A DNA stretch of 64,000 bases from Phycisphaerales bacterium (GCA_036732005.1 DAINDF010000015.1:8406-72405); one strand, 5' to 3'; positions 18,785-61,691 are shown, counted from the first letter of the stretch. Program-made: numbers and translations. The notes: a model not told the origin generated them from the letters alone.

Positions 18785-21163
18785 ATGAAACGCGCGCGTC
18801 TGTTCTGCCTCGTCGCCGCGGCGGGCGTCGGTGTGCCCCTGCACGCCGTCGCCGCCCCGGTGGTCGCCCCGACCGCCTCCCAGTTCAAGTCGACGCTCCC
18901 CGTCGCGGCGCTCCCGCATGTCCGGGTTCCCGCGATGGACCTCGGCGCCGCGATGCTCCTCGAGCGCGTCGAGCTCGACGCGGGCGGGCCCCCGCGCTTC
19001 GCGATCGAGAGCCCCGTGCAAATCACCCCCGACACACACGGCGCGTGGGAGCAGGTCGACCAGAACACCGTCATCTGGCGCGTCCGCGTCTCCTGCGAGA
19101 ACGCTGTCTCCCTCAACTTCGGCTTCACGCGCTACCGCATGCCCGAGGGAGGCCGGCTCTACATCCACCAGTCCGCCGGCGACCGCTCCATCCGCCCCTT
19201 CACCGCCGACGACAACGACGACCACGGCGAGCTCTGGACCCCCATGCTCGCCGGGCCCGACGCCGTCATCGAGGTCACCCTCCCGTTCGACCGGCAGAAC
19301 GAGCTCGAACTCGAACTCGGGGCGATCAACACCGCCTACCGCGGCTTCGGGGCCGTGCCTGACTATGACACCCGCTCGGGCTCGTGCAATGTCGATGTGA
19401 TCTGCCCCGAGGGCGACGACTGGCGCTCCGAGATCCCCTCGTCGGGCGTCTACACCGTCAACGGCGTGTGGTACTGCTCGGGCTCGCTGATCAACAACAC
19501 CTCGGGTGATCAGACCCCCTACTTCCTCACCGCAAACCACTGCTCGGTCACCACCTCCAACGACCAGGGCGTGGTGGTCTACTGGAACTACGAGAACTCC
19601 TGGTGCCGCCCGCCCGGCTCGGGCTCGTCCGGCGGCGCGGGCGACGGGTCGCTCGCCCAGTTCTCCAGCGGCGTGGTCTGGCGCGCCGCCCGCAGCGCGA
19701 GCGACTTCACCCTCGTCGAGATCGAGGACCCGCTCAACCCCGACTGGAACCTCTCCTTCTCCGGCTTCGACGCCACCGGGGCCGACGCCTCCAGCGCCGT
19801 CGCCATCCACCACCCCAGCACCGACGAAAAGCGCATCTCCTTCGAGTATCAGCCCACCACCACCACCTCCTACCTCTCCAACACCGTGCCGGGCGACGGC
19901 ACCCATGTCCGCATCACCGACTGGGACCTGGGCACCACCGAGCCGGGCTCCTCGGGCTCGCCCCTCTACAACCAGGACCACCGCATCATCGGGCAGCTCC
20001 ACGGCGGGTACGCCTCGTGCACCAGCCAGACCTCCGACTGGTACGGCAAACTCAGCGTCTCGTGGGACGCGGGCACCACCGCCTCGGCCCGCCTCCGCGA
20101 CTGGCTCGACCCGGGAAACACCGGGCAGCGCGTCGTGGACACGCTCTTCCCGGGCCTGACGGGCATGAGCGTCGTCGGCTCCGACCTCGCCTCCGAGGGC
20201 CAGCGCGGCGGGCCGTTCGTCCCGGGTGAAGCGGTCTACACCATCCGCAACAACCTCGACATCCCGCTCGCGTACCAGGTCACCTCCGCCGCCAACTGGA
20301 TCACCATCACCGGCGCCGACGGCACCATCCCCGAGGGAGGCGAGGACCAGATCGCCGTCGCCATCAACAGCGCCGCCAACACCTTCCCCAACGGGCACTA
20401 CGAGGCCGTGATCAACTTCACCAACCTCACCGACGGCGAGGGCGACGCCACCCGCGTCGTCCGCCTCGATGTCGGCGTCCCCGCCCCCGTCTACACATGG
20501 GACCTGTCCACCAACCCCGGATGGTCCACCGAGGGCCAGTGGGCGTGGGGAACCCCCACCGGCGGCAACGGCGACCACGGCAACCCCGACCCCACCTCCG
20601 GCCACACCGGGAGCACGGTCTACGGGTACAACCTCGCCGGCGCCTATGTCAACAACATGCCCGAGTACGACCTGACCACCACCGCCATCGACTGCACCGA
20701 CCTCACCCAGGTCTCCCTCCGCTTCTGGCGCTGGCTCAATGTCGAGCAGTCCATCTACGACCACGCGACCATCCGCGTGTCCAACAACGGCACGACATGG
20801 ACCCAGGTCTGGACCAACAACGCCACCATCGAGGACAGCTCCTGGTCGCGGGTCGAGTACGACATCTCCGCCGTCGCCGACAACCAGCCCACCGTCTACA
20901 TCCAGTGGGTCATGGGCACCACCGACGGCTCCTGGCTCTACTCCGGCTGGAACATCGATGATGTCGAGATCCTCGCCGTCGCCCCCGACACCTGCCTCGC
21001 CGACCTCAACAACGACGGCATCCTCGACCTCGCCGATGTCCAGGCCTTCATCGCCGCCTTCGTCGGGCAGCAGAGCCCGGCCGACCTCGCCGAGCCCTTC
21101 GGCGTCTACGACCTCGCCGATGTCCAGGCCTTCATCGCCTCGTTCACCAGCGGCTGCCCCTGA
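18785..21163 (+). CDS. secreted trypsin-fold (S1, lysyl-endopeptidase-like) serine protease with a jelly-roll (MAM/LamG-like) domain and C-terminal Cys...GCP dockerin-like module
   Basis: ATG at 18785. Signal peptide MKRARLFCLVAAAGVGVPLHAVAA. His in YFLTANHC, Ser in GSSGSPLY. A later domain reads WSTEGQWAWGTP...IRVSNNGTTWTQVW...GWNIDDVEI. Ends CLADLNNDGILDLADVQAFIAAFVGQQSPADLAEPFGVYDLADVQAFIASFTSGCP. Confidence 0.88.
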   Translation: MKRARLFCLVAAAGVGVPLHAVAAPVVAPTASQFKSTLPVAALPHVRVPAMDLGAAMLLERVELDAGGPPRFAIESPVQITPDTHGAWEQVDQNTVIWRVRVSCENAVSLNFGFTRYRMPEGGRLYIHQSAGDRSIRPFTADDNDDHGELWTPMLAGPDAVIEVTLPFDRQNELELELGAINTAYRGFGAVPDYDTRSGSCNVDVICPEGDDWRSEIPSSGVYTVNGVWYCSGSLINNTSGDQTPYFLTANHCSVTTSNDQGVVVYWNYENSWCRPPGSGSSGGAGDGSLAQFSSGVVWRAARSASDFTLVEIEDPLNPDWNLSFSGFDATGADASSAVAIHHPSTDEKRISFEYQPTTTTSYLSNTVPGDGTHVRITDWDLGTTEPGSSGSPLYNQDHRIIGQLHGGYASCTSQTSDWYGKLSVSWDAGTTASARLRDWLDPGNTGQRVVDTLFPGLTGMSVVGSDLASEGQRGGPFVPGEAVYTIRNNLDIPLAYQVTSAANWITITGADGTIPEGGEDQIAVAINSAANTFPNGHYEAVINFTNLTDGEGDATRVVRLDVGVPAPVYTWDLSTNPGWSTEGQWAWGTPTGGNGDHGNPDPTSGHTGSTVYGYNLAGAYVNNMPEYDLTTTAIDCTDLTQVSLRFWRWLNVEQSIYDHATIRVSNNGTTWTQVWTNNATIEDSSWSRVEYDISAVADNQPTVYIQWVMGTTDGSWLYSGWNIDDVEILAVAPDTCLADLNNDGILDLADVQAFIAAFVGQQSPADLAEPFGVYDLADVQAFIASFTSGCP

Positions 21164-35003: not shown

Positions 35004-35015
35004 GGGGGATCGGGG

Positions 35016-38743: not shown

Positions 38744-38799
38744 GGGTTTCTGTACGCCTCCGGCCCCCGTATGATCGGCCCGAACACGAGGGGAGCATC

Positions 38800-44263: not shown

Positions 44264-45346
44264 TCAGGGGCACCCGTTCAGGAACGCGTTCACGAAGGTC
44301 GTGATGTCGGCGAGATCGAACAGGCCGTCGTCGTTGAAATCGACCGACGAGTCCTGTGATGTGAACCCCGAGACGAACGCGGTGATGTCCGCGAGGTCGA
44401 GCAGGCCGTACTCGGGGGCGAGGTCGGCTTCGTTGCAGCCCGGGGCGGCGTTGGTGATGGTGATCTCGTAGTTCCCGAATTGGAAGTGGAACCCGGCGAA
44501 GGCGAAGTCGCTGTACCCGGTGATGGCGATGAAGAGATCGCCGAACTCGTCCGTGGTCCCGTTGAGGACGGACAGGCAGCAGCCGACATCCGGGTCGTCA
44601 TCGTTGATATCGATGAACGCACCGCCCGAGTCGAATGTCGCCAGGACGGTGTCAAAGTCGGCGCTGGTGACGCGGATCTCGTACTCGGTGTCGGGGGCCA
44701 GGCCGCCGATCTGGTAGAAGTCCACATCGTTTGAGCACTTGCACCCGCCCGGGGTGTTGTCGAGGTAGAGGTCGTAGTACCCGCCGATCGCCTCGGCCGG
44801 GGCGGTCAGCCCGCCCCCGAAGACCTCGTCGCCCGTGATGAACTCGAAGTCCCCGACATAGTCGAAGCCGATGTAGTTGAACCCTCCGTCGTACCAGTCG
44901 ACCCACCCGTTCCAGAGCCCGAGCTCGCCGTGGGGGTTGGCCGTGCCGTCGTCGAAGCCGTCAAAGTCGAAGTCGTCATACCCCGAGACGAGCCAGGAGA
45001 CGAGCCCGCTGGGCTCGACGGGGCGGCCGAAGACGCCCGAGGCCCGCCCGTTGCCGAGGAAGCTGTCGTCGTCGTCGGTCTCGACGATCGAGCCGAGATC
45101 GTCGTAGACGCCCAGCACGGTGTCCGGGCCGGGGCAGTCCCCACCTCCCTTGCCGTACCCGTACCCGCACCCGCGGTCTTCGAGATCGCCGGCGATCACC
45201 ACGCCGTCGGGGTTTCCCTGGACGAAATCGCCCGGGAAGAAGTCGTTGGCGGGCTCGCCGACCCCGCCCATGACCGCCGCGGACATCGAGAGCACGGACG
45301 CGATCGCCGCGGCGTCGGCCGCCGAGACCTTCTTCTGGCTGGACAT
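44264..45346 (-). CDS. secreted acidic protein with PPC-like (FDT...DDD) beta-sandwich modules and C-terminal Cys...GCP dockerin-like module
   Basis: ATG at 45346 preceded by GGGAG. N-terminus MSSQKKVSAADAAAIASVLSMSAAVMG. DTVLGVYDDLGSIVETDDDD; DVDFYQIGGL...ADFDTVLATFDSGGAFIDINDDD. Ends CNEADLAPEYGLLDLADITAFVSGFTSQDSSVDFNDDGLFDLADITTFVNAFLNGCP. Confidence 0.85.
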   Translation of the reverse strand: MSSQKKVSAADAAAIASVLSMSAAVMGGVGEPANDFFPGDFVQGNPDGVVIAGDLEDRGCGYGYGKGGGDCPGPDTVLGVYDDLGSIVETDDDDSFLGNGRASGVFGRPVEPSGLVSWLVSGYDDFDFDGFDDGTANPHGELGLWNGWVDWYDGGFNYIGFDYVGDFEFITGDEVFGGGLTAPAEAIGGYYDLYLDNTPGGCKCSNDVDFYQIGGLAPDTEYEIRVTSADFDTVLATFDSGGAFIDINDDDPDVGCCLSVLNGTTDEFGDLFIAITGYSDFAFAGFHFQFGNYEITITNAAPGCNEADLAPEYGLLDLADITAFVSGFTSQDSSVDFNDDGLFDLADITTFVNAFLNGCP

Positions 45347-45464
45347 TCTCTGATCTCCCACTCGCCGAGTCGGGCGTGCCGCGCGGCCCACGCAGCCGGT
45401 GCGGCGGCCCCTCGGCGGGGATCATCCCGGATCGCCGCGGCGGGGTCAATGGGTCGGGCGCATG

Positions 45465-46325
45465 TTAGAGATCGCTCACCCCGCCCCGGGCGCTCGGGCG
45501 CGCCGAGGGGTCGGCCCCCGAGGACTCGCCCGCCCCGCCGGTGACCGAGATGAGACGGAAACGGCTGACGAGTTCGACCTCAAGGCGGTGGGTGGCTTCC
45601 ATGCCGCGGCGCTGCAGGGCCCGGCGCACCGCGCCGGCGGAGGCCTCGATCTGCTCGAGCCGCTTGCCCGAGGAGATGGTGTCGGCGTGCTGGCGGTAGA
45701 GATAGAGAGGCCTCGGGAGCCGGCGGAACTCGGTGATCTCGCTGAGGCGGAGGCAGAAGTCGTAATCGCCCGCGTAGCGCATCGACTCGTCTAGCCCGCC
45801 GACGCGGTCGTAGAGCTCGCGGCGGTAGAGGCGGAAGTGGAAGGTCATGAAGTCGACGAGGAGGCGGCGGGGGGAGTAGGGGATGTCGGCGCGGTGCCCG
45901 TAGGCGAGCGGGCGGTTGTGCTCGTCGATGACCATCTGATCGGTGTAGACGCAGCCGACTTCCGGGTTGGCGCGCAGCTCGGCGGCGCAGGCGCTCAGGC
46001 AGTCGGGCAGGATGAGGTCGTCGGAATCGACCCAGCCGATGAAGCCCCCCCGGGCGTGCCGGTGGGCGAGGTTGAGGTTGGCGAACGAGCCCGCGTTCCG
46101 CTCGCGCGCGATGGCGCGGACGCGCGGGTCCTCCGCCCCGTGGCGGCGCGCCACGGCGAGCGTCCCGTCGGTGCTGGCGTCGTCGACGACGATGACCTCG
46201 AACGAGGGGTGGTCCTGGTCGCGGATCGAGCGCAGGCAGGCGTCGAGCATCCGCTCGCGGTTGAACGCGCACACGATGACGGTGATTTCTGGCGCCGGGC
46301 CGTCCGCCCCGGCCGGGTCGCTCAT
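45465..46325 (-). CDS. glycosyltransferase family 2
   Basis: ATG at 46325 overlaps the stop codon of the upstream gene (ATGA). ITVIVCAFNRERMLDACLRSI, VIVVDDASTDGT, GWVDSDDLILPD. Confidence 0.88.
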   Translation of the reverse strand: MSDPAGADGPAPEITVIVCAFNRERMLDACLRSIRDQDHPSFEVIVVDDASTDGTLAVARRHGAEDPRVRAIARERNAGSFANLNLAHRHARGGFIGWVDSDDLILPDCLSACAAELRANPEVGCVYTDQMVIDEHNRPLAYGHRADIPYSPRRLLVDFMTFHFRLYRRELYDRVGGLDESMRYAGDYDFCLRLSEITEFRRLPRPLYLYRQHADTISSGKRLEQIEASAGAVRRALQRRGMEATHRLEVELVSRFRLISVTGGAGESSGADPSARPSARGGVSDL

Positions 46326-49300
46326 TCCGCGCACTCCGCGCCGGAGAACAGCTCGACGAATCGAATCAGGTCGGAGGCGTCGAGGACTCCGTCGCCACAC
46401 CCGATCACGCCCTCCAGGGGCATGTCCGCCGAGAGCCGCCCGGCCTGGAAGTCGGCGATGAAGCCGTTGAAGTCGGCGAGATCGAAGGTCTCGAACGGCA
46501 CGACAAGATCGGCGGCGTTGCAGGGGATGCCGATGCCGGTGCTGCCGCAGCGGGCGGTCAGCTCGGCGAGGAAGGCGCCCCGCCCGTGGGTGAAGGCGAC
46601 CATCGTGTTCTTGTCGCGCAGGTCGATCGACTCGACGACAGTGCGCGGCAGCGTGCCGGGCCCGGTCATCGGGATGTTGACGAAGGTCCAGTTGACGCGG
46701 TCCTCGGGGTCGGAACCGTTGTCGGGCCCGTCGGGGTCGCAGAGCAGGTCCTCGGCCCATGCGTCGGCGCTGATGAAGACGCCGATCTCGGTGCCGACGA
46801 TGACGAGGCACTCGCCCGGGTCGTCGCAGGGCCCGCTGTTGCACTTGCGGAGCGTGACCCAATGGGCGGGGACATCGGGCAGGACGGGGTCGATGCCGTC
46901 GTCGGGGTTGCAGTCCACGCCGTCGTAGACGATGAACTGGTACTCGCCGGCGGCCGACCCCTCGGTGACGGTCGAGCCGCGGAAGACATGCCCGAACGAG
47001 CCGGTGGAGGTGAACCGGGCGTTGGTGAGCCAGACGACATCGGGGTCGTAGGGGTCGACGGCGATGCTGGAGACATAGCCCGATTCGAGCGGGAGGCCGA
47101 CATAGAGGACCTCCCAGACGATGTCGGCGGGGTCGTTCGCCAGGCCGTTGAGCGTGCGGAGCACCCACCCGTCCTCGGTGCCCATGTAGACGACATCGGA
47201 ATCGGAGGGCGCGACCGCGATCGCGGAGACGCGGGAGATCAGGTCGAACTGCGGGGGCAGGCCCGGGAAGTTGAAGTTGGGGCCCGCGAGATCCCAGTCG
47301 ACGAGGGCGGGGTCGGCGTCGTTGGCGTTGGTCGTGCGCCAGGGGCGGAGCCCGCCGGTCCAGAGGACATTCGGGTTGTTGGGGTCCATCGCGATCGGCG
47401 TGATGAACAGGCCGAAGTCGGGGCCCAGCCCGTTGTTGATGTTCTCGGGGTCTTCTGATCCCACGGGTGCGGCGGGGTTGAACCGCATGCGGTAGACCGA
47501 GCCGAAGTTCTGCGTGGAGCCGTAGATGGTGTTGTTGTCGGTCGGGTCGATCCAGGTGTAGCCCCCATCGCCGGTCAGGAGGGTGTCCCAGGATTCGGTG
47601 CAGGAGCGCCGGAAGGAGCGGACAACACCGTTGTCCTGCGTGCCGCCGGCGAACATGTCGCGCCCGTTGGGCGCGGTCGTGGTCCCGCTGTCGCCGTGGT
47701 AGAACTGGGTGACCTCGTACCCGTTGTTCAGGTCCTTCCACACGACCTGGGACTGATCGGCCCCGGGCAGGAAGGGGCAGCCGTCCTCGGCGACGGGCGC
47801 ACGGGCGTTGAGGGTGCGGTGGAGCCCGCCGTCGTTTGAGACATACATCGTCTGGTTCGCGACGCCGTCGTACTGGGGGTGGAAGACGATCTCGTGCTGA
47901 TCGGCGTGGACATACTGGGCGGCGCCCGGGTCGAAGTACCAGTAGGACGCGACGCCGAAGTTGGCGGCGCCGTCGTCGGAGCGGAACAGGTCGATGCCGC
48001 CGACCCAGACGATGTCCTCGTCGGCCGGGTCGACCTTGATGATGTTGTCGTACCACCCCTGGCTGAGGTTCTGGTCGATCACGCCCGCGCAGACGCCGGA
48101 GAAGAGCGGGTTGGAGAGCAGGACCTCGTGGAGAAGATTGGTGGGGTGATCGAACTCGAGGCGGGGCTCGAAGACGAGCTGCGCGTCGGTGACGACACCG
48201 TCCATGTTCGTCATTTTGACCAGGCTGGTCATGTCCGCCCGGAAGACATTGATCACGCCGCCGTACTCGAGCCCCTGCGACTCGGCGGGGACATCGAAGA
48301 AATCCCCGTTCCGGGCCATGAGGACATAGACGACGCCCTCGTCGGCCTCGCTGGTGCGCGGGCCGAAGGCGACGGTCATCCGCCCCTGCACGACGGTGTC
48401 GATGCGGTGGATGGTGTCGTCGCTGGCGCCGGTCTGGTCGACCTGGCGGAACCAGCGGTCGCCCCCGTCGACGCTGAGCCAGAGCCCGTCGTCCCGGGCC
48501 CCGCCGAAGGAGGCGAGGACGATCTCCTCCTCGGGCTCATCGGGGTTGCCCGTGCGGGGCGCGGGGCGGACCTGGACATCGAGCGCGCCCTCGATCGAGC
48601 CCCGGGCGTTCTGCTGCCCGAAGAGGTAGATCGGGTTGGCGAGCATGAGGCGCCAGATGTAGTTGTTGCCCTCCCCGTCGGTCGGCTCGCCCCGGTTGTC
48701 GTGCCGCCAGACGCCCGTCCGCGTCGCGACATAGATGCGCTTGGGATCGGCCGGGCTGATCGCGATCTTGTTGACATACTGGAACGCGAAGGAGGCGACG
48801 AAGGGGAAGAGCGTCTCCTCCATCTGCTGCCAGGACAGGCCCCCGTTGGTGCTCTTGTACATGCCCAGGCCCTGGACCGCGTCGCCGTTGAAGAAGCCCT
48901 CGCCGGTGCCGGCGTAGACGATCTGCGGGTTCTCGGGGTCCATGGCGAGCGCGGAGACGGCGATGTTCTCGAGCAGGTCCGCCACGGGGCGCCACGACGC
49001 CCCGCCGTCGTCGCTCCTGAAGATGCCGCCGGCCACGCCCGCGGCGAGCATGAACCCGGGGTCGTCCGGGTCGGTCGAGCCCGGGCCGAGCGGGTGGATC
49101 ACCATCGCACGCGTGCGCCCGCCGACATTCCCCGGGCCCAGGTTGCGCCAGGTGTCGACGAAGTCCTCCGCTTTCACATCGCCCCGGAGCAGCGCCCGCT
49201 CGCGGAGCAGCGCCGCCTGACGCTCGGCCTTGCGGGCCGCCTCACGCACCTGCTCGACCGGATAGTCGACCCCCGCGGGCACGCGCTGCTCGAGCCAGTA

Positions 49301-49543
49301 CGCCTGCCGATCGGCCTGTTTGGTCGGGCTCTTGCCCACCACCGTCCGCCGGATCTTCCCGTCCACGATCCGCTGCACCTCGGGCGGGAGCGTCTCGTAC
49401 GCCACCCGCTCTCGCCAGAGCCGCTCGGCGGCCTGCTCGTGAGACCGACCCGGAGCCGGCGCCGCGCCCGCGAGCAGACCCGAGGCGATCAACCCGAGCG
49501 CCCTGAGCCCGACGCACATCCCGAACTTCCTCGGATTGCCCAT
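46322..49543 (-). CDS. secreted BNR/Asp-box repeat (sortilin/VPS10- or GH74-like) double-propeller protein with a degenerate dockerin-like C-terminus
   Basis: ATG at 49543. Signal peptide MGNPRKFGMCVGLRALGLIASGLLAGAA. Asp-boxes FRSDDGGASW, YKSTNGGLSW, LSVDGGDRW, FRSDDGAANF, VSNDGGLHR. Ends CNAADLVVPFETFDLADFNGFIADF...GDGVLDASDLIRFVELFSGAECAE. Confidence 0.85.
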   Translation of the reverse strand: MGNPRKFGMCVGLRALGLIASGLLAGAAPAPGRSHEQAAERLWRERVAYETLPPEVQRIVDGKIRRTVVGKSPTKQADRQAYWLEQRVPAGVDYPVEQVREAARKAERQAALLRERALLRGDVKAEDFVDTWRNLGPGNVGGRTRAMVIHPLGPGSTDPDDPGFMLAAGVAGGIFRSDDGGASWRPVADLLENIAVSALAMDPENPQIVYAGTGEGFFNGDAVQGLGMYKSTNGGLSWQQMEETLFPFVASFAFQYVNKIAISPADPKRIYVATRTGVWRHDNRGEPTDGEGNNYIWRLMLANPIYLFGQQNARGSIEGALDVQVRPAPRTGNPDEPEEEIVLASFGGARDDGLWLSVDGGDRWFRQVDQTGASDDTIHRIDTVVQGRMTVAFGPRTSEADEGVVYVLMARNGDFFDVPAESQGLEYGGVINVFRADMTSLVKMTNMDGVVTDAQLVFEPRLEFDHPTNLLHEVLLSNPLFSGVCAGVIDQNLSQGWYDNIIKVDPADEDIVWVGGIDLFRSDDGAANFGVASYWYFDPGAAQYVHADQHEIVFHPQYDGVANQTMYVSNDGGLHRTLNARAPVAEDGCPFLPGADQSQVVWKDLNNGYEVTQFYHGDSGTTTAPNGRDMFAGGTQDNGVVRSFRRSCTESWDTLLTGDGGYTWIDPTDNNTIYGSTQNFGSVYRMRFNPAAPVGSEDPENINNGLGPDFGLFITPIAMDPNNPNVLWTGGLRPWRTTNANDADPALVDWDLAGPNFNFPGLPPQFDLISRVSAIAVAPSDSDVVYMGTEDGWVLRTLNGLANDPADIVWEVLYVGLPLESGYVSSIAVDPYDPDVVWLTNARFTSTGSFGHVFRGSTVTEGSAAGEYQFIVYDGVDCNPDDGIDPVLPDVPAHWVTLRKCNSGPCDDPGECLVIVGTEIGVFISADAWAEDLLCDPDGPDNGSDPEDRVNWTFVNIPMTGPGTLPRTVVESIDLRDKNTMVAFTHGRGAFLAELTARCGSTGIGIPCNAADLVVPFETFDLADFNGFIADFQAGRLSADMPLEGVIGCGDGVLDASDLIRFVELFSGAECAE

Positions 49544-49824
49544 GCCGTGATGTCCTTTGCGAGAACCCGCTCCACCGGCGCCGGCCGCGACGCCCGCGCC
49601 AAACCCCCGCCCGCTCAGCGTAGAGCGATACGCAGAATCAGACAATCGGGTTCTTGTTCGAGCGAGGGCCCCACCCCCTTGGACCCCGCGCGGACCGGAC
49701 CGGGAGGTCCGAGAAACTCTTTCTTCCTACTTCACAGATTGCGGCTGGGGCGGATCGTCGGGATCCGTTACGCTCCCCCGAACCGGCGTCGGGGACGCCG
49801 CCCGAGGCGAAAGAGGAGAATCCC

Positions 49825-52800
49825 ATGGCATCATCGATCGGTCCCGCCCTGCTGGGGCTCGGCGCACTCGCTCTCACCCTGCCGAACGCGGCGGCCCAGA
49901 GCATGACCCCCGCGGAGTTCAACGCCGCCCTCGCCAACGCGCGGGTCGTGGGCCCCGCGGGGCAACCCGAGTTGATCATCCCCATCGACACGCCGGGCTG
50001 GGCCCAGGGGCTGGGTGTGACCGGGGCCTTCCGCCATTACAAGGGCCTGTGCGGGCCCGACGGCGCCCTCGCCAGCATCCAGCAACTCGTGGCCCACGCC
50101 GAGCGGGACCTGACCGGCGCCTCGGTCCGGGGCATCGGGGTCCCGGCGACGCAGGTGATCGGCGACAGCCCCACGGTCAAGGTCACCTACGACGCCCTCA
50201 ATCCCTTTGCGTTGATCTACCTCGGCGACTTCATCGACGCCGCCGAGTATGTCGACCTCCAGTTCCAGAACCGCGTCACCATCAGCGTCACCATGGACGC
50301 CGAGTCCATCCCGGGCAGCACCATCGGCTCGGCCGGGAGCACGCGGTTCGACATCCCCTGGTCGACCTATGTCGAAGGCCTGCGGCACCAGTCCAACCGC
50401 GAGGACGATGACTTCGCCGACGCCCTGCCCGCCGCCTCCCTCCCCGTCCGGTTCGGCTTCCCGGGCACGGGCACGACCAATGTCACGGCGATCCGCGTCA
50501 CCGACGCCCAGCTCCGCGCCGCCTTCGGCGACACGGTCGTCGCCGAGGCCGAGTCGGTCAGCATCACGCTCGACACGGACAACTCCTGGTCGCTCAACGG
50601 CTGCGACAGCCTGCCCAGCGGTTCGCAGCTGAGCCTGGTGGATGTCGCGGTGCACGAGATCACCCACGGCCTGGGGTTCACCAGCGCCATCGCCGAGGGG
50701 GGCGACAACAGCAACAACCGCATCCAGGGCCTCGATGTCGCCCGGTTCTTCGAAGATCCTCTCTTCGGCGCCCTCCCCGGCGTCTCGGGCGGGCGGCCGC
50801 TCAACAACGCCCAGTTCGCCACCTTCCCGCGCCACGGCGAGGGCGCCATCCTGAGCGGGATCTCCCAGCACTGGTACGCCAACACCGCCGACGGATTCGT
50901 GACCTTGCTCGAGGAGGGCGACGCCAACCAGCCCTCACACCTCTCCCGCCGCAGCGCGTTTGAGGACAAGCTGGGCATCATGGACCCCGTGCTGAATTCG
51001 GGAACCTCCTTCTGCACCTCGTTCTACTCCGCCAACGACCTCAAGCCCCTCGACGACATGGGCTGGTACCCGGTCGCCGCGAACATCCTCGCCGACTGCA
51101 ACGGGAACTTCCTCCCCGACTTCCTGGACATCCTGAACGGCGCGCCCGACACCAACCGGAACAACATCCCCGACTCGTGCGAGACCTTCTTCGCCGATGT
51201 GAGCATCGGCGCCGCGATCTCGGGGCTCACGCTCTCCCAGTGGAGCACCCCGGGGCTGACGACGCTCGACGGGTTCAACCCCAACAACTTCAACCTCGTC
51301 TTCCGCGGCGCCACGGACGACGCGACCACCAGCTACACCTCCAGCGCCGATATCGTCGCCCGATTCAGCGGGCACTTCAACGCCCCCGCCACCGGGCAGT
51401 ACGCCTTCCGCGTCGACCACTCCGACGCGGCGACCCTCCGCGTCGCGGGGCAGACGCTCCTGGCGATCAACGCGGGCCGGGCGACGACGCGGACGAACTC
51501 TTCGACGCAGATCGCCCCGCAGAACTTCATCAACCTCGACGCGGGGCTTCACGCCTTCGAGCTGACCGTCATCCTCAACAACTCGGGCGACGCCTGCTCC
51601 GTCATCGCCGACGCGATCGCGCTGGGCGACTGGCGCGCCCTCGTGCAGAACGACTTCCGCCGGGCCCTGTCCTCGTTCCCGGACTGCAACAGCAACGGCA
51701 TCGACGACCAGTTCGACGCCGACGCCGACAACGACGGCATCCCGGACGACTGCGAGGCCGACTGCGACAACGACGGCATCGCCGACGAGACCCAGTTCGC
51801 GGGCGACCTCGCCTCGCGCACCGTGCTCGGTGTCCTCGCCGCCCCGGGCGAGGTGGTCACGCTCTCCACCGCCGGGTCCAACTTCGACACCGAGATCGCC
51901 CTCTACGACGCCAACGGGACGCTCATCCAGGCCGACGACGACGGCGGCCCGGGCACCCAGAGCGAGATCGTCCGGACGCTGGGCGCGGGCACCTACCGGC
52001 TCGGCGTCGGCGGGTTCAACATCATCTTCGCCAACGGCCCGTCGATCACCTACCCCGCCGGCTGCGCCGATTCCGGCAACGCCGTCGTCGCGATCTCGAG
52101 CGCCTCGGGCCTGTTCAGCGGGCCCACCGCGGTCGCCTCGGGCCGCACGCGCTGGTTCGAGTTCACCGTCCAGGAGACCGCCGACTGCGACAACGACGGC
52201 ATCCTCGACTCGCAGGAGTTCGACTGCGACAGCGACGGCGTCCCCGATGACTGCCAGATCTTCGACTTCGACTTCGGCGGGGGTGTCGTCGGCACCAGCG
52301 ATCAGACCATCATCATCAACACGATCGGATCGTCGTTCGACACCGAGATCGCGGTCTGGGACAGCAACGGCCTCCTCCTCGCCCAGAACGACGACATCGC
52401 ATTCCCCAACCTCCAGAGCGAGATCGTCCGCGCCTACGACCCGGGCGACTACCTCCTCTGCGTCGCGGGCTACAACACCGTGTTCAGCGACTTCGCCCCC
52501 GACTTCATGTCCGGCGGCGTCCAGGTCAATGTCGACGGGTGCTCGGCCGGCGGGCTCATCAGCCTCGAGATCGGCAGCGAGGGCGGGACCGACATCTTCG
52601 ACCTGCCCCCCGGGCGCGTCGCCTTCTTCCCGTTCACCATCGACCTGCCCTCGCCCGCGTGCAACGCGGCCGACCTCGCGCCCCCCTTCGGCCTGCTCGA
52701 TCTCTCTGACATCACCACCTTCGTCGCGGGCTTCACCGGGCAGGACCCCGCCGTCGACTTCGACAACAACGGGCTGTTCGACCTCGCCGATATTACCACC

Positions 52801-52833
52801 TTCGTCAACGCCTTCCTCGCCGGTTGCCCCTGA
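49825..52833 (+). CDS. secreted multidomain protein: HExxH metalloprotease-like domain, PA14 domain, TSP3-type Ca-binding repeats, two PPC-like modules, C-terminal Cys...GCP dockerin-like module
   Basis: ATG at 49825 preceded by AGAGGAG. Signal peptide MASSIGPALLGLGALALTLPNAAAQ. VAVHEITHGLGF. The PA14-like part reads FSGHFNAPATGQYAFRVDHSDAATLRVAG. DADADNDGIPDDCEADCDNDGIADE; SNFDTEIALYDANGTLIQADDDG and SSFDTEIAVWDSNGLLLAQNDD. Ends ...FVNAFLAGCP. Confidence 0.88.
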   Translation: MASSIGPALLGLGALALTLPNAAAQSMTPAEFNAALANARVVGPAGQPELIIPIDTPGWAQGLGVTGAFRHYKGLCGPDGALASIQQLVAHAERDLTGASVRGIGVPATQVIGDSPTVKVTYDALNPFALIYLGDFIDAAEYVDLQFQNRVTISVTMDAESIPGSTIGSAGSTRFDIPWSTYVEGLRHQSNREDDDFADALPAASLPVRFGFPGTGTTNVTAIRVTDAQLRAAFGDTVVAEAESVSITLDTDNSWSLNGCDSLPSGSQLSLVDVAVHEITHGLGFTSAIAEGGDNSNNRIQGLDVARFFEDPLFGALPGVSGGRPLNNAQFATFPRHGEGAILSGISQHWYANTADGFVTLLEEGDANQPSHLSRRSAFEDKLGIMDPVLNSGTSFCTSFYSANDLKPLDDMGWYPVAANILADCNGNFLPDFLDILNGAPDTNRNNIPDSCETFFADVSIGAAISGLTLSQWSTPGLTTLDGFNPNNFNLVFRGATDDATTSYTSSADIVARFSGHFNAPATGQYAFRVDHSDAATLRVAGQTLLAINAGRATTRTNSSTQIAPQNFINLDAGLHAFELTVILNNSGDACSVIADAIALGDWRALVQNDFRRALSSFPDCNSNGIDDQFDADADNDGIPDDCEADCDNDGIADETQFAGDLASRTVLGVLAAPGEVVTLSTAGSNFDTEIALYDANGTLIQADDDGGPGTQSEIVRTLGAGTYRLGVGGFNIIFANGPSITYPAGCADSGNAVVAISSASGLFSGPTAVASGRTRWFEFTVQETADCDNDGILDSQEFDCDSDGVPDDCQIFDFDFGGGVVGTSDQTIIINTIGSSFDTEIAVWDSNGLLLAQNDDIAFPNLQSEIVRAYDPGDYLLCVAGYNTVFSDFAPDFMSGGVQVNVDGCSAGGLISLEIGSEGGTDIFDLPPGRVAFFPFTIDLPSPACNAADLAPPFGLLDLSDITTFVAGFTGQDPAVDFDNNGLFDLADITTFVNAFLAGCP

Positions 52834-52867
52834 GCCGACACGGCAACAACCCACGCCCTGATTGATC

Positions 52868-52900
52868 GGGGGCCCGGGACGCGACCCGGGCCCCTTCTTC
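52868..52900 (+). terminator. rho-independent terminator (GGGCCCGGG family)
   Basis: GGGGCCCGGG-ACGCGA-CCCGGGCCCC hairpin followed by TTCTTCGTGCCGAC. Confidence 0.6.
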
Positions 52901-53100
52901 GTGCCGACTCCGCCCCGGCCTCGGGCACACCCCACTCCAGAGAGGGGTTGGCACGCCGCGCCCTCGGTGTAGCGTGCCGGCTCGACGGTCAGGAGAAACG
53001 ACGCCGCGCCCGCGCGTTTGTGGACACTCGGAGTGATGCGCTGCAACGGATGTCGCTTCACACGCGCACCTGACCCACACAGGAGCAGAGGAGCCACACC

Positions 53101-54708
53101 ATGACACATCGATTCGTTTCCACGGCGATCATCGCCGGCATGACCGGGCTGCCCGTTCTCGCCAGCGCCCAGCCCACCGTCCGCGTCAACCTCGGGCCGG
53201 GAGGTGCCCAGGGCGACGGCATCAACACCGAGGTCGCAGCCAGCGATGACGGGAGGCATGTTGTCTTCGCCAGCACCTCGACCAACCTCGTGCCGGGCGG
53301 CACCTCGGGCCGCCAGGTCTTCGCCGCCGATCGCGATCCGGACGGCAACGGCGTGCTCGACGAGGGCAACACCCTCGTCACCCTGATGAGCCTGGGCATC
53401 GACGGGCTGCCCGGGAACGGGAGCCAGGGCGGATTCAACGGGTTCCACGGCGTCGACCTCTCCGCCGACGGACGCTTCGTCCTCTGGTCGAGCCAGTCCA
53501 CCAACCTGGTCGCGGGCGATACCTCCGGCTTCGGGAGCTACGACATCTTCGTCCGCGACCGCGACCCCGACGGCAACGGTGTCTTCGACGAGAGCAACGG
53601 CGTGACCGAGCGCGTCAATGTCGGCCCGGGAGGCCTCCAGGCCGACCACCCCGACAGCGGGGCCGACCAGATGGGCATCTCGGGCGACGGGCGCTTCGTC
53701 GTCTACAGCTCCTCGGCCACCAACCTCGTCCCGGGCGACTCGCAGGATGTCGTGCCCAACATCTATCTGCACGACCGCCAAACAGGCCTGAACAACCGGC
53801 TCGATCTGCTCACCTCGACGCAGAATGTCGGGAGCCGATACCCCCAGATCTCGACCGACGGCTCGTGGGTCGTCTACGCGGCCTACGCCGATTTCCAGAA
53901 CTTCACCAACAAGCAGATCATCGTCGTCGGCCCGGCGGACGCCAACCCCGTTGTCGTCAGCAAGAACGACAACGGGATCCTCGGCAACGGAGATTCGGGC
54001 ACCAACCCCAACACCCGCGGCCCGCGGATCAGCGGCGACGGGCGGTTCGTCGCCTTCGTCTCGCTCGCCACCAACCTCGATGTGACCAGGGCCGGCGACC
54101 CCTCGAACACCTTCAAGCTCTTCCTGCACGACCGAGACAGCGACGGCAACGGCGTGTTCGACGAGCCCGGGGGGTTCACCACACGGCGGGTCGATGTCGG
54201 CCCCGGAGGTGTCGCGGCCGACGGGTTCTTCGCCCGCGACCCCGACCTCGCCGACAACGGGCGGCTCGTGTTCACCGCCAACGCTTCCAACCTCGTGCCG
54301 GGTGACACCACGCCGACCACACTCGCCGACACCTACCTCTACGAGCCCGCCGCCGGCACGCTCGAGGTCATCAGCCGCGCCACCAACGGCGATCAGGCCA
54401 ACAGCAACTGCTTCTTCCCCGTGCTCACGGGGGACGGCGCGCAGGCCGTCTTCGGCTCTCAGGCGTTCAACCTCGTGCCCGGAGACACCAACGGGCGCGA
54501 CGACATCTTCGCCCGCACGCTCCCCCCGGCGGCGTGCAACTCGGCCGAACTCGCGCCGCCCTTCGGCACGCTCGATCTCGCCGACATCACCGCGTTCGTC
54601 GCGGGCTTCACCGGGCTGGACCCCATCGCGGACCTCGACCACAACGGGCTGTTCGACCTCGCCGACATCGGCCTCTTCGTCAACGCCTTCCTCGCCGGCT
54701 GCCCCTGA
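53101..54708 (+). CDS. secreted PD40/TolB-type beta-propeller repeat protein with C-terminal Cys...GCP dockerin-like module
   Basis: 535 aa. Signal peptide MTHRFVSTAIIAGMTGLPVLASA. Six repeats of the type FASTSTNLVPGGTSGRQVFAADRDPDGNG and SSATNLVPGDSQD..NIYLHD. Ends CNSAELAPPFGTLDLADITAFVAGFTGLDPIADLDHNGLFDLADIGLFVNAFLAGCP. Confidence 0.88.
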   Translation: MTHRFVSTAIIAGMTGLPVLASAQPTVRVNLGPGGAQGDGINTEVAASDDGRHVVFASTSTNLVPGGTSGRQVFAADRDPDGNGVLDEGNTLVTLMSLGIDGLPGNGSQGGFNGFHGVDLSADGRFVLWSSQSTNLVAGDTSGFGSYDIFVRDRDPDGNGVFDESNGVTERVNVGPGGLQADHPDSGADQMGISGDGRFVVYSSSATNLVPGDSQDVVPNIYLHDRQTGLNNRLDLLTSTQNVGSRYPQISTDGSWVVYAAYADFQNFTNKQIIVVGPADANPVVVSKNDNGILGNGDSGTNPNTRGPRISGDGRFVAFVSLATNLDVTRAGDPSNTFKLFLHDRDSDGNGVFDEPGGFTTRRVDVGPGGVAADGFFARDPDLADNGRLVFTANASNLVPGDTTPTTLADTYLYEPAAGTLEVISRATNGDQANSNCFFPVLTGDGAQAVFGSQAFNLVPGDTNGRDDIFARTLPPAACNSAELAPPFGTLDLADITAFVAGFTGLDPIADLDHNGLFDLADIGLFVNAFLAGCP

Positions 54709-54744
54709 ATCGCCCCCGAGGACCGACGACCTTCGATGAAACAA

Positions 54745-54774
54745 GGGCCCGGGGTTCCGCCCCGGGCCCTTTTT
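54745..54774 (+). terminator. rho-independent terminator (GGGCCCGGG family), possibly bidirectional
   Basis: GGGCCCGGGG-TTCC-GCCCCGGGCCC hairpin followed by TTTTTCGTGCCGAC. It sits between convergent genes ending at 54708 and 54800. Confidence 0.7.
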
Positions 54775-54799
54775 CGTGCCGACCCTGATCACGCCGCGA

Positions 54800-55768
54800 T
54801 CACGGGCACTTGTCGCTCGCGATCGAGCAGAACGCCCGGCTCGGCGGGGGCAGGTTGCAGAACTGCGTCTCCGTCCGGCAGCGGTCCGTCCCGGGGATCG
54901 GCCCCCCGTTTCGTACGCAGCACTTGTCGTTGTCGCACACCGCCGCGTACACCAGCCCCGAGCCTTTGCCCGCGTCGAGCGCGAGCAACTCGGGCTCGGT
55001 CACCTCCGTGGTGTTCTTGAAGAACAGGTCCGCGACCGTCACCGCGCCGGCGATCCCGACCACCCCGGGCAACGCCGCCTGACGCGCCGCCACCTCGTCG
55101 GGAGACCCGGGCTGCCCCGGCACCCCGATCCCCAGGTCACGCAGCGCGTCGAGCATGGGCCAGAACGGCTCCGAGCCCGGATGGAACACGAGGACCTCGC
55201 CCACGGGCATCGGCCCCGTCGCCGCCGCGAGCTGCTCGAGCACCGCCGCGATCGCCGTCGGGTCCACCGTGCTCGGGACGCAGTCGTTGAGCGTCTCGAG
55301 CCGGCCCAGGATGAACGGCAGGTTCGCCTGCAGGGGCTGCCCGAGCAACTGCCCCAGCGGGATCGGGCCGAACAGATGGATCGTCCGGTTGATCGCGTCG
55401 TAGTTCGACTGGATCACCGGCGGGTCGTCGAAGCCGCCCTCGATCGTCGTCCGGATGTCCGGGAAGCACGCCGCCGGCGGACACCCGTTCACGAACGAGG
55501 TCACGAACAGATTGAGGTCGCCAAGGTCGAGGATCCCGTCGCCCGTCAGGTCCGCCGCCGGGCTCTGGTTCACGAACGCGGACACGAACGCGTTGATGTC
55601 CGCCAGGTCCAGCACCCCGAGCGGCGGGGCCAGGTCCGCGGGGTTGCACCCCACCCCGGGCCCGGCCGACGCCGGGGCCGCACAGACCCCGAGGCCGAGC
55701 CCCGCGATCGCCACCAGACCGAAAGCCGAATTCCGCAAGGACGCACCGATACCGTGAGCACGCTGCAT
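54800..55768 (-). CDS. secreted protein with N-terminal Cys...GCP dockerin-like module and a Cys-rich C-terminus
   Basis: ATG at 55768 preceded by AAGGAG. Signal peptide MQRAHGIGASLRNSAFGLVAIAGLGLGVCAAPASA. The module CNPADLAPPLGVLDLADINAFVSAFVNQSPAADLTGDGILDLGDLNLFVTSFVNGCP follows immediately. Then ~225 aa of unknown domain ending VCDNDKCCVRNGG...CRTETQFCNLPPPSRAFCSIASDKCP. Confidence 0.8.
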   Translation of the reverse strand: MQRAHGIGASLRNSAFGLVAIAGLGLGVCAAPASAGPGVGCNPADLAPPLGVLDLADINAFVSAFVNQSPAADLTGDGILDLGDLNLFVTSFVNGCPPAACFPDIRTTIEGGFDDPPVIQSNYDAINRTIHLFGPIPLGQLLGQPLQANLPFILGRLETLNDCVPSTVDPTAIAAVLEQLAAATGPMPVGEVLVFHPGSEPFWPMLDALRDLGIGVPGQPGSPDEVAARQAALPGVVGIAGAVTVADLFFKNTTEVTEPELLALDAGKGSGLVYAAVCDNDKCCVRNGGPIPGTDRCRTETQFCNLPPPSRAFCSIASDKCP

Positions 55769-59353: not shown

Positions 59354-59454
59354 CCCCCGCTCGACCATCAGCTTCGAACGAGCCGCGGACGCACGCGCCC
59401 AAGACGCCCGGCCGCAACGCCCGGTACCCTGACCCCGTGCACGCCCCTGAAAAC

Positions 59455-61608: not shown

Positions 61609-61691
61609 CGCGGGCTGGGCGGGGCCGGCGCGTGCCGACGAGCCCGAATTGCGGGTGAAGGAATCTCTCATACGGCTTGTGATTGACCGCT

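What the first reader, a model, noticed from the sequence alone, without database searches (positions are those of the whole stretch)
44264..55768. Island of five consecutive secreted proteins sharing a ~57-aa Cys...GCP-COOH dockerin-like module
Seen: ORFs 44264-45346(-), 46322-49543(-), 49825-52833(+), 53101-54708(+) and 54800-55768(-) all start with Sec-type signal peptides. Each carries the same module, for example CNAADLAPPFGLLDLSDITTFVAGFTGQDPAVDFDNNGLFDLADITTFVNAFLAGCP. The module has an opening Cys and two copies of a (D)LxDIxxFVxxF helix segment. The second copy is preceded by a DxNxDG-type loop, and the protein ends exactly at G-C-P-stop. The same module also terminates 12645-13841 and 18785-21163, giving 7 carriers in 64 kb. 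The passenger domains are unrelated: PPC-like acidic modules, an Asp-box propeller, HExxH+PA14, a PD40 propeller, an S1 protease and LVIVD repeats. The module DNA differs mostly at synonymous positions (compare 44264-44440 with 52660-52833), so selection acts on the peptide rather than this being a recent DNA copy. Knowledge: a duplicated Ca-loop plus helix segment is the architecture of dockerins and EF-hand pairs. I believe curators label this a GC-type dockerin anchor in Phycisphaerae-like genomes, but I know of no identified partner or mechanism. Inference: this is a shared surface-anchoring or sorting device for a displayed enzyme set. The receptor (a cohesin analogue, a glycan from the nearby polysaccharide cluster, or an enzyme recognising the terminal GCP) is unidentified.
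Basis: partly seen in the sequence, partly recalled or inferred. Interest (0 to 1): 0.8.

Follow-up and report, generated by a model that had tools for sequence, protein, structure and literature searches.

The report
GC-type dockerin tag on secreted proteins
Seven secreted proteins in this marine planctomycete (Phycisphaerales) fragment share a small, cysteine-clasped, dockerin-like domain that NCBI already catalogues as the "GC-type dockerin"; it is real and very widespread, but what it binds is still unknown.

Summary
Seven ORFs in the window carry a ~59-aa module, and all seven match NCBIfam NF041540 (dockerin_GC, "GC-type dockerin domain-anchored protein"). Only five of them end at GCP-stop. 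One has an insertion variant ending AECAE. One has the module at its N-terminus, directly after the signal peptide. A cytoplasmic GT2 gene interrupts the "five consecutive" genes.

AlphaFold2 folds the module with high confidence (pLDDT 96.8) as loop-helix, linker, loop-helix. Sequence links to true dockerins are weak but consistent, and tandem-module relatives that hit Pfam Dockerin_1 bridge the two. The module differs from classical dockerins in three ways: a nearly invariant flanking Cys pair, at most one canonical EF-hand Ca loop per window module, and an A-x-P-F-G loop in place of the other.

The module is found in 11,593 representative protein clusters. Four Phycisphaerales MAGs each hold at least 17-56 carriers, scattered over the chromosome. 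Of 177 carrier ORFs, 161 end at the module. Passengers are proteases, glycosidases, propellers and "choice-of-anchor" domains.

The most likely role is a position-independent docking tag that holds exoproteins on a common surface receptor. No receptor was found: there is no recurrent neighbour family, and the adjacent N-terminal-module protein has an all-alpha domain, not a cohesin. This is a catalogued family with unknown biology, of moderate interest.

The parts
44264..45346 (-). Carrier 1: a 360-aa secreted protein with an acidic, weakly PPC-like passenger. The C-terminal GC-type module is at 44267-44443 and ends GCP-stop.
   Evidence: ORF and translation. NF041540 at 28.6 bits, just under the 29-bit cutoff. 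No Pfam hit. The only strong similarity to carrier 3 is the module itself, 69% over 68 aa.
45465..46325 (-). GT2 glycosyltransferase, 286 aa, with no signal peptide and no module. It sits between carriers 1 and 2, and its start overlaps the stop codon of carrier 2.
   Evidence: Pfam Glycos_transf_2, E 9.8e-35. Coordinates.
46322..49543 (-). Carrier 2: a 1073-aa secreted BNR/sortilin-like (F510_1955-like) protein. Its variant module at 46325-46528 has an inserted Cys-containing loop and ends AECAE rather than GCP.
   Evidence: NF041540 at 34.5 bits and NF045728 at E 6e-16. Sortilin-Vps10, weak.
49825..52833 (+). Carrier 3: a 1002-aa secreted NF038122-family metalloprotease (HExxH) with PA14 and PPC domains. 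The module is at 52654-52830 and ends GCP-stop.
   Evidence: The module structure was predicted from this copy (pLDDT 96.8).
53101..54708 (+). Carrier 4: a 535-aa secreted PD40-type beta-propeller protein. The module is at 54529-54705 and ends GCP-stop.
   Evidence: The identical protein occurs on JGI metagenome contig Ga0104734_1003204. A syntenic 536-aa PD40 homologue occurs in CP060234.1.
54800..55768 (-). Carrier 5: a 322-aa protein built as signal peptide, then an N-terminal GC-type module (55478-55654), then a conserved all-alpha, Cys-rich 'domain X' of about 225 aa. It ends SDKCP.
   Evidence: NF041540 at 47.8 bits, the best score in the window. About 10 full-length homologues, all from Phycisphaerales, some with domain X duplicated. 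AF2 shows an all-helical domain. No PDB match by fold or sequence.
12645..13841 (+). Carrier 6: a 398-aa secreted LVIVD-repeat protein. The module is at 13662-13838 and ends GCP-stop. Its second loop is degenerate (DLDANAIHELRD).
   Evidence: LVIVD at E 9e-32. NF041540 at 30.7 bits and weak choice_anch_B.
18785..21163 (+). Carrier 7: a 792-aa secreted trypsin-like S1 protease with MAM/choice-of-anchor-J-like domains. The module is at 20987-21160 and ends GCP-stop. Its loop order is swapped, with the canonical EF-hand loop first and the AEPFG loop second.
   Evidence: Trypsin_2. NF041540 at 42.7 bits and choice_anch_J at E 9e-5. Loop typing.

Best explanation
The module is an autonomous extracytoplasmic docking domain of about 57-60 aa. 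It belongs to the dockerin (duplicated 'F-hand' loop-helix) superfamily, in the subtype NCBI calls GC-type dockerin (NF041540).

Proposed structure: two antiparallel helices (DLxDIxxFVxxF), each preceded by a loop. The fold is held shut by a disulfide 'clasp' between the Cys four residues before loop 1 and the Cys of the terminal G-C-P. It is therefore only partly dependent on Ca2+, or independent of it: one loop is often a canonical EF-hand 12-mer, and the other is usually a 13-residue A-x-P-F-G loop that lacks the position 3 and 5 ligands.

Proposed role: marine Phycisphaerales fuse this tag, normally at the extreme C-terminus, to dozens of Sec-exported proteases, glycosidases, propellers and adhesin-like proteins per genome. 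After export, the tag binds non-covalently to one common receptor on the cell surface and keeps the exoproteome cell-associated.

Shown here: the module's existence, conservation, fold topology, position statistics, abundance, taxonomic range and passenger diversity.

Inferred: the disulfide, cell-surface retention, and the existence and nature of the receptor (protein or glycan).
For: - Family membership: 7 of 7 window proteins and 98 of 98 carriers from related genomes match NF041540.
- Fold: AF2 gives pLDDT 96.8 and pTM 0.83, with helices at 18-29 and 45-56 and a short turn at 33-35. This is the dockerin topology.
- Link to true dockerins: the best PDB profile hits are genuine dockerins (2y3n_B E 0.0036, then 4wi0_B, 4u3s_B, 5lxv_B). 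hhalign against the CelS/CelD dockerins aligns the second Ca loop. Tandem-module relatives are top hits of the module profile (E 1e-25 to 1e-34) and also hit Pfam Dockerin_1 (P0120 83.7 bits, P0113 39 bits).
- Cys pair: present in 415 of 421 unique modules and lost together more often than chance (Fisher p 3e-6). It also flanks every internal tandem copy.
- Position-independent domain rather than a terminal signal: the module is N-terminal in the 54800-55768 family and occurs in tandem arrays.
- Tag-like use: 161 of 177 carrier ORFs end within 1 aa of the module. A crude heuristic% of carriers signal-peptide-like, against 36% of control ORFs. The fetched loci alone hold at least 48-56 carriers per MAG, up to 7 per 12 kb. 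The module is found in 11,593 representative clusters.
- Passengers are typical exoproteome: M12B, M14, S8 and S1 peptidases, GH3, CBM6/35, FG-GAP, BNR. They include 'choice-of-anchor' families. From my knowledge of the NCBIfam naming convention, those families are defined by carrying different C-terminal anchors in different lineages.
- An independent precedent exists for cohesin/dockerin-organised peptidases in Phycisphaerae: the 'planctosome' hypothesis (PMC6461901).
Against: - No receptor was found. Clustering about 425 neighbouring genes from 80 loci gave no recurrent candidate, only kinases, response regulators, ABC transporters, ECF sigma factors and pseudopilins.
- The one adjacent candidate, domain X of 54800-55768, is all-alpha and not a cohesin-type beta-sandwich. 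It has no PDB relative and occurs in only about 10 clusters, too few for a universal receptor.
- Foldseek did not retrieve dockerins. Its top hits were calmodulin and calpain EF-hands at probability 0.06 or below.
- There is no Pfam Dockerin_1 hit even at E<=10, and the hhalign probability is only 12.5%.
- More than half of modules lack any canonical Ca loop, so classical Ca-dependent cohesin binding cannot simply be assumed.
- The Cys-Cys distance could not be measured because model coordinates are not exposed.
- There is no experimental or published evidence of cell association.
Confidence: 0.5

Rival explanations
1. Scaffold-free self-association. GC-type modules bind each other, homotypically or heterotypically, instead of binding a cohesin. 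Tagged enzymes would then coalesce into mixed aggregates, or dock onto proteins that display several modules in tandem.
For: Proteins with 4-9 tandem modules exist. One combines four modules with a peptidoglycan-binding domain (P0113), and others have an astacin-like N-terminal region (P0118, P0141). Half modules, with one loop-helix between the two Cys, exist and would need a partner half to complete an EF-hand-like pair. No cohesin-like partner was seen near 177 carriers.
Against: None of the 80 Phycisphaerales loci contained a multi-module protein (187 modules in 187 ORFs). The tandem-module proteins come mostly from other lineages and have divergent modules. AF2 folds a single module as a closed monomeric unit with very high confidence. 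No interaction data exist.
Confidence: 0.15
2. Stability cap with no partner. The module is a compact, disulfide-stapled terminal domain with an optional Ca site. It protects secreted proteins from exoproteolysis or aids folding and solubility in seawater, and has no docking function.
For: The helix positions expected to be solvent-exposed (22, 26, 29-30, 49, 53, 56) are the most variable columns. The conserved positions are the Asp, Leu, Ile and Phe residues typical of a core and its loops. No receptor was found. Many dockerin-like modules occur in genomes without recognisable cohesins (my recollection of Peer et al. 2009, not checked here).
Against: A pure stability cap would not need to stay about 60% identical across hundreds of unrelated passengers and several genomes. 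It would also not be expected on 50 or more proteins per genome in exactly the architectural slot that anchor or sorting domains occupy in 'choice-of-anchor' families. The loop residues A-x-P-F-G are strongly conserved and likely exposed.
Confidence: 0.15
3. Export or sorting signal. The terminal module, or its G-C-P carboxy-terminus, is recognised by a secretion or processing machine: outer-membrane translocation, or cleavage and attachment analogous to PEP-CTERM/exosortase, the T9SS C-terminal domain, or MYXO-CTERM.
For: The module is at the extreme C-terminus in 161 of 177 carriers and in about 137 of the 150 best representatives. The ending G-C-P is 96/97/86% conserved. There are dozens of substrates per genome, as for known sorting systems. 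Carriers include choice-of-anchor passengers.
Against: No transmembrane helix or basic tail follows the motif, unlike sortase- or exosortase-type signals (sequences). The module also functions at an N-terminus, immediately followed by more protein, and as internal tandem copies that keep the second Cys without a free carboxylate. It is a confidently folded domain, not a linear signal. No conserved processing-enzyme gene recurs next to carriers.
Confidence: 0.1

Closest known systems
NCBIfam NF041540 dockerin_GC ('GC-type dockerin domain-anchored protein')
   Same: All seven window proteins and 98 of 98 related carriers match this 67-position model. PGAP applies the name to a homologue. The module length, the Cys...GC(P) boundaries and the planctomycete host all fit.
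   Different: Two window copies score just under the 29-bit cutoff. One is an insertion variant without GCP, and one is N-terminal rather than an 'anchor' at the C-terminus. The family has a name but no published characterisation (0 papers), so membership gives no mechanism.
Classical type I dockerin (Pfam PF00404; e.g. C. thermocellum CelS, PDB 1DAQ/2MTE, and CelD)
   Same: Both are modules of about 60-70 aa made of two loop-helix repeats, placed at the C-terminus of many secreted enzymes. The second loop aligns with the dockerin Ca loop. Tandem-module relatives hit both profiles. The predicted topology matches.
   Different: There is no PF00404 hit. Each window module has at most one canonical Ca loop, and over half of all modules have none. 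A conserved A-x-P-F-G 13-mer loop replaces a Ca loop. A flanking Cys pair is nearly invariant. No cohesin was identified. The host is a diderm marine planctomycete and the passengers are mostly peptidases and propellers, not cellulases.
'Planctosome' hypothesis for Nemodlikiaceae (Phycisphaerae), Andrei et al. 2019, ISME J (PMC6461901)
   Same: It proposes a cohesin/dockerin-based surface complex that organises M12B and M14 peptidases in Phycisphaerae, including an adaptor with a signal peptide followed by an N-terminal dockerin. M12B and M14 passengers, and a protein with an N-terminal module, are seen here too.
   Different: That model rests on Pfam-detectable cohesin and dockerin domains in freshwater CL500-3 genomes and is itself only a hypothesis. 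Here no cohesin was found, and the N-terminal-module protein carries an all-alpha domain rather than HYR plus cohesin. Whether the Nemodlikiaceae dockerins are GC-type was not tested.
C-terminal protein-sorting tags (PEP-CTERM/exosortase, T9SS C-terminal domain, LPXTG/sortase, MYXO-CTERM)
   Same: One short C-terminal unit is shared by dozens of otherwise unrelated secreted proteins per genome. It sits in the slot filled by these tags in 'choice-of-anchor' families.
   Different: There is no transmembrane helix or basic tail. The module is a folded helical domain. It works at the N-terminus and in internal tandem copies. No associated sorting enzyme was seen.
EF-hand pair (calmodulin-type)
   Same: The canonical loops fit the PROSITE-type EF-hand pattern. 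Pfam EF-hand models give weak hits, and Foldseek's top hits, though non-significant, are calmodulin and calpain.
   Different: There is no entering helix, so each repeat is an 'F-hand' only, as in dockerins. Most loops are non-canonical. The context is extracytoplasmic and disulfide-bounded.

Membership tests
NCBIfam NF041540 GC-type dockerin | Match to the curated HMM at or above the 29-bit cutoff | tested here: met
   Five of 7 window proteins score 30.7-47.8 bits. The other two score 28.6 and 26.3 bits with E<=7e-6. All 98 related carriers match.
NCBIfam NF041540 GC-type dockerin | Module bounded by a conserved Cys near its start and a Gly-Cys at its end, usually at the protein C-terminus | tested here: met
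   C4 is 99%, G58 96%, C59 97% and P60 86% conserved in 421 modules. 161 of 177 carriers end at the module. Window exceptions are 46322-49543 (ends AECAE) and 54800-55768 (N-terminal module).
Dockerin superfamily (type I dockerin, Pfam PF00404) | Significant match to Pfam Dockerin_1 | tested here: not met
   No hit at E<=0.01 on the full proteins, nor at E<=10 on isolated modules. There is only transitive support: tandem-module relatives found by the module profile hit PF00404 at up to 83.7 bits.
Dockerin superfamily (type I dockerin, Pfam PF00404) | Two tandem ~22-residue segments, each a loop followed by a helix, folding as an antiparallel helix pair | tested here: met
   The internal repeat is visible in the sequence. 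AF2 at pLDDT 96.8 places helices at 18-29 and 45-56.
Dockerin superfamily (type I dockerin, Pfam PF00404) | Two canonical 12-residue EF-hand Ca2+-binding loops (ligands at positions 1, 3, 5, 9, 12) | tested here: not met
   None of the 7 window modules has two canonical loops and 4 of 7 have one. Among 421 modules, 3.6% have two, 44% one and 52% none.
Dockerin superfamily (type I dockerin, Pfam PF00404) | Structural similarity to solved dockerins | tested here: inconclusive
   Foldseek against PDB gives no significant hit for this 60-residue model. The PDB sequence-profile search puts true dockerins on top at E 0.0036-8. hhalign probability is 12.5%.
Dockerin superfamily (type I dockerin, Pfam PF00404) | Binds a cohesin module encoded in the same genome | not testable with these tools
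   Whole genomes could not be scanned. No cohesin-like gene was noticed in the window or in the neighbour-family analysis of 80 loci. Domain X is all-alpha.
C-terminal sorting signals (PEP-CTERM, LPXTG, MYXO-CTERM type) | Signature motif followed by a hydrophobic transmembrane segment and a basic tail at the extreme C-terminus | tested here: not met
   The proteins stop immediately after G-C-P, and no hydrophobic or basic tail follows.
C-terminal sorting signals (PEP-CTERM, LPXTG, MYXO-CTERM type) | Strictly C-terminal position | tested here: not met
   The module is N-terminal in the 54800-55768 family and occurs as internal tandem copies in P0113, P0117, P0118, P0120 and P0141.
EF-hand pair | Helix-loop-helix with an entering (E) helix before each loop | tested here: not met
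   The model shows no helix before loop 1 (residues 1-17 are coil) and only a 3-residue turn before loop 2.

The most novel reading that the evidence does not exclude
The GC-type module defines a docking system that does not use cohesins. It would be a disulfide-clasped, largely Ca-independent descendant of the dockerin fold. Through its conserved A-x-P-F-G loops it would tether at least 50 exoenzymes per cell to a receptor class not yet known. Candidates are a surface glycan made by the neighbouring polysaccharide/GT genes, another copy of the module (homotypic docking onto multi-module display proteins), or a lineage-specific all-alpha adaptor such as domain X of 54800-55768.
Probability: 0.2. 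Interest if true: 0.7.

Novelty: new member of a known kind. Interest (0 to 1): 0.45.

Why it matters
If the anchoring reading is right, this one tag organises a large share of the extracellular enzymes of abundant marine, particle-associated Phycisphaerales. That means at least 48 proteins in a 3.3-Mb genome, and 11,593 protein clusters in public data.

Knowing its receptor would explain how these diderm bacteria keep proteases and glycosidases on the cell instead of losing them to seawater.

It would also provide a small (about 57-aa), disulfide-stabilised and possibly Ca-independent docking pair for protein display. The family has a database name but no paper, no structure and no known partner, so the question is open and can be tested directly.

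Tried and rejected
1. Domain X of the N-terminal-module protein (54800-55768) as a cohesin analogue: rejected. It is all-alpha, has no PDB fold or sequence match, and occurs in only about 10 clusters.
2. Guilt by neighbourhood: all-vs-all clustering of 577 likely genes from 80 module-centred loci. The only recurrent non-carrier families were Ser/Thr kinases, response regulators, ABC transporters, ECF sigma factors, LacI, pseudopilins, a GH5 and an unnamed secreted protein. None is a convincing partner.
3. Foldseek of the module against PDB: no significant hit, so the fold test is inconclusive.
4. Testing 'slot equivalence' by finding homologues of the metalloprotease passenger that carry other anchors: the word-indexed search returned only 7 hits and no anchor information.
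5. The search for related loci with the 85-sequence alignment failed because no stretch was conserved enough. It worked with an 8-sequence alignment.
6. Literature: 'GC-type dockerin' returned 0 papers. The dockerin + Phycisphaerae / Planctomycetes searches found only the 'planctosome' hypothesis.
7. Mobile-island reading: rejected. Composition is normal, housekeeping genes flank the region, synteny is conserved, and there are no tRNA or Rfam hits.
8. Measuring the Cys-Cys distance: not possible, because model coordinates are not exposed. Co-loss statistics were used instead.
9. The signal-peptide heuristic is crude. It missed obvious signal peptides, such as the window LVIVD protein, and over-calls controls. 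The figures of 79% and 36% are indicative only.

Full report
**What is in the window**

The window is a 70% GC chromosomal fragment with normal composition. It is identical to part of a 70.7-kb contig of JGI metagenome 3300007289. It carries these housekeeping genes:
- PtsI, gamma-glutamyltranspeptidase, MsrBA, YidC and ClpP;
- rplM/rpsI and MreB/MreC;
- a polysaccharide-biosynthesis cluster at 30.7-39.8 kb.

No tRNA or Rfam RNA is present. The gene order PA14 protein, PD40 protein, 54800-55768 homologue, rplM, rpsI, GSDH is conserved in the complete 3.31-Mb Phycisphaeraceae MAG CP060234.1. The region is therefore vertically inherited chromosome, not a mobile island.

**Checking the observation**

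A motif scan and a six-frame HMM scan find exactly seven modules in 64 kb, all in frame with these ORFs. Corrections:
- Five proteins end ...G-C-P-stop.
- 46322-49543 has an insertion variant ending ...AECAE.
- 54800-55768 carries the module at residues 39-97, immediately after its signal peptide, followed by 225 more residues.
- A cytoplasmic GT2 glycosyltransferase gene (45465-46325, minus strand) sits between the first two carriers. Its start overlaps the stop of 46322-49543.

Of 40 differences, 23 are at third codon positions, so peptide-level selection is moderately supported. The adjacent modules of 49825-52833 and 53101-54708 are instead 86% nt and 78% aa identical, with only 4 synonymous changes. 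That points to recent duplication or gene conversion.

Passenger annotations are broadly right:
- LVIVD, strong hit;
- trypsin-like S1 protease;
- NF038122 metalloprotease with PA14 and PPC;
- PD40 and sortilin/BNR-like, both weak.

44264-45346 has no family hit and only a faint PPC-like resemblance.

**What the module is**

All seven proteins match NCBIfam NF041540, dockerin_GC, 'GC-type dockerin domain-anchored protein'. PGAP uses this name on a homologue (MEM1185066.1). No paper uses the term.

AlphaFold2, run on an 85-sequence alignment, folds the 60-residue module with pLDDT 96.8. The order is an N-terminal loop, helix 18-29, a short turn, a second loop, then helix 45-56. This is the dockerin 'F-hand pair' topology.

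Sequence links to real dockerins are weak but consistent:
- A PDB profile search ranks genuine dockerins first (2y3n_B at E 0.0036, then 4wi0_B, 4u3s_B, 5lxv_B).
- hhalign against the C. thermocellum CelS/CelD dockerins aligns only the second Ca loop, at probability 12.5%. Those two sequences were first verified against 2MTE, 1DAQ and 1CLC.
- Pfam Dockerin_1 does not hit the window modules, even at E<=10.
- Tandem-module proteins that are top hits of the module profile do hit Dockerin_1: P0120 at 83.7 bits, P0113 at 39 bits. This gives a transitive bridge.
- Foldseek found nothing significant.

**How it differs from classical dockerins**

I collected 421 unique full-length modules. The two flanking Cys are 99% and 97% conserved. 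The six Asp residues at D8, D17, D20, D36, D44 and D47 are 96-100% conserved.

The loops come in two types that can occupy either position:
- a canonical EF-hand 12-mer, for example DLNNDGILDLAD;
- a 13-mer, ADLA(E/P)PFGxLDLAD, that lacks the ligands at positions 3 and 5.

By a PROSITE-type pattern, only 3.6% of modules have two canonical loops, 44% have one and 52% have none. In the window, four modules have one and none has two. 'Two Ca sites' is therefore not the rule.

The Cys pair is lost together far more often than chance: 3 modules lack both, 3 lack one, and 415 have both (Fisher p 3e-6). Each internal copy in tandem-module proteins is also Cys-bounded. In dockerin topology the start of loop 1 lies next to the end of the last helix. 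On that basis I infer an intramodule disulfide clasp.

**Distribution and usage**

An exhaustive HMMER search of 1.84 billion representative proteins finds 11,593 with E<=1e-3 and 3,517 with E<=1e-10. In about 137 of the best 150, the match runs to the last residue.

The best 80 all come from four Phycisphaerales MAGs and are scattered around the chromosome. Results from those loci:
- 177 unique carrier ORFs were found, and 161 end within one residue of the module.
- Up to seven carriers occur per 12 kb.
- The fetched loci give lower bounds of 48, 49 and 56 carriers for three of the MAGs. For CP060234.1 these loci cover only about 7% of the genome.
- A crude signal-peptide heuristic flags 79% of carriers against 36% of control ORFs. 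Most 'misses' visibly have signal peptides.
- Passengers include FG-GAP/VCBS, M12B reprolysins, M14, S8 and S1 peptidases, GH3, CBM6/35, BNR and propellers.
- All 98 carriers tested match NF041540, and several carry 'choice-of-anchor' domains. Two window proteins show weak choice-of-anchor B or J hits.

From my knowledge of NCBIfam naming, choice-of-anchor families are those whose members end in different anchoring or sorting domains in different lineages. That places the GC module in the anchor slot.

**Mechanism**

The most likely explanation is a position-independent, disulfide-clasped docking domain that retains Sec-exported proteins on a common cell-surface receptor.

The terminal G-C-P is probably just the end of the clasp, not a processing site:
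- The module works at an N-terminus in the 54800-55768 family. This family has about 10 homologues, all from Phycisphaerales, with domain X present once or twice.
- The module also occurs as internal tandem copies.
- No hydrophobic or basic tail follows it.

I could not find the receptor. Domain X is a confidently predicted all-alpha, Cys-rich domain with no PDB relative, and it is too rare to be universal. Neighbour-gene clustering gave no candidate. Whole genomes could not be scanned for cohesins.

The only literature precedent is the untested 'planctosome' proposal: cohesin/dockerin-organised M12B and M14 peptidases in freshwater Phycisphaerae (PMC6461901).

Three rivals remain open: scaffold-free module-module association, a partner-less stability cap, and a secretion or sorting signal. 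The sorting signal is the least likely of the three.

**Verdict**

The finding is real and well beyond chance. The seven proteins are new members of a catalogued family (NF041540) within the dockerin superfamily. The 'island', the 'always GCP-terminal' and the 'two Ca loops' details are not accurate. New from this analysis:
- the two loop types and the scarcity of canonical Ca sites;
- the co-conserved Cys clasp;
- half modules and tandem modules;
- the syntenic N-terminal-module family with a novel all-alpha domain;
- the scale of use, at least 50 carriers per genome.

The biology, meaning the receptor and whether the proteins are cell-associated, remains untested. Interest is moderate.

Noticed in passing
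window 45465-46325 (-) and 46322-49543 (-): The ATG of a cytoplasmic GT2 glycosyltransferase overlaps the stop codon of the secreted BNR/sortilin-like carrier upstream, which suggests translational coupling. Carrier 44264-45346 follows on the same strand, so the three genes look like one operon that mixes a glycosyltransferase with two module-tagged exoproteins.
   Followed up: partly
window 54800-55768 (-); homologues P0248-P0256, P0201; L002 10001-10966 and 15460-16428: This is a small Phycisphaerales-only family: signal peptide, N-terminal GC-type module, then a domain of about 225 aa with 8 conserved Cys (motifs CFPDIRTT, NYDAINRTIH, CDNDKCC, NLPPPSRAFCSIASDKCP). The domain is predicted all-alpha, has no Pfam or PDB match, and is duplicated in two 546-aa members. 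The family is conserved in synteny next to rplM/rpsI and the PA14 and PD40 carriers.
   Followed up: yes
window 52654-52830 vs 54529-54705: The modules of two adjacent carriers are more alike in DNA (86%) than in protein (78%), with only 4 synonymous differences in 46 conserved codons. This indicates recent tandem duplication or gene conversion, unlike the other module pairs.
   Followed up: partly
proteins P0096, P0101, P0108 (metagenomic): These are 'half modules': a single A-x-P-F-G loop and helix between the two Cys (for example C-N-VADLTEPFGVLDLADITAFVSAFLAG-C-P). They may arise by recombination between the two repeats. They might need to pair with another half.
   Followed up: no
proteins P0113/P0114, P0117, P0120, P0118/P0141; L081 10001-13093: Proteins outside the typical Phycisphaerales set carry 4-9 tandem Cys-bounded dockerin-like modules. 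One combines four modules with a PG_binding_1 domain, and others have an astacin-like N-terminal region next to an astacin/FG-GAP gene. They hit Pfam Dockerin_1, and PGAP names P0141 a GC-type dockerin protein.
   Followed up: partly
proteins P0115, P0121, P0197: In these carriers the GC module is followed by a Gly-rich linker and a second, degenerate Cys-rich module ending ...GCR...ACQ or ...GCGH.
   Followed up: no
window 26141-27451 (+): A DUF3800-family ORF lies in a patch of lower GC (0.64, against about 0.70 elsewhere). It may be a recently acquired gene.
   Followed up: no
window ~59400-61950: Between the GSDH gene and mreD, no ORF shows the normal codon-position GC pattern. The longest ORF (60016-61923, minus strand) has no Pfam hit, and the PBP2 gene expected downstream of mreBCD was not found.
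   Followed up: no
window 30693-39807: A polysaccharide biosynthesis cluster (GDP-mannose dehydratase, Wzy-like, Wzx-like flippase, pyruvyl transferase, GT1/GT4, epimerase) lies about 5 kb from the carrier cluster. It could supply a glycan receptor, but nothing links the two.
   Followed up: no
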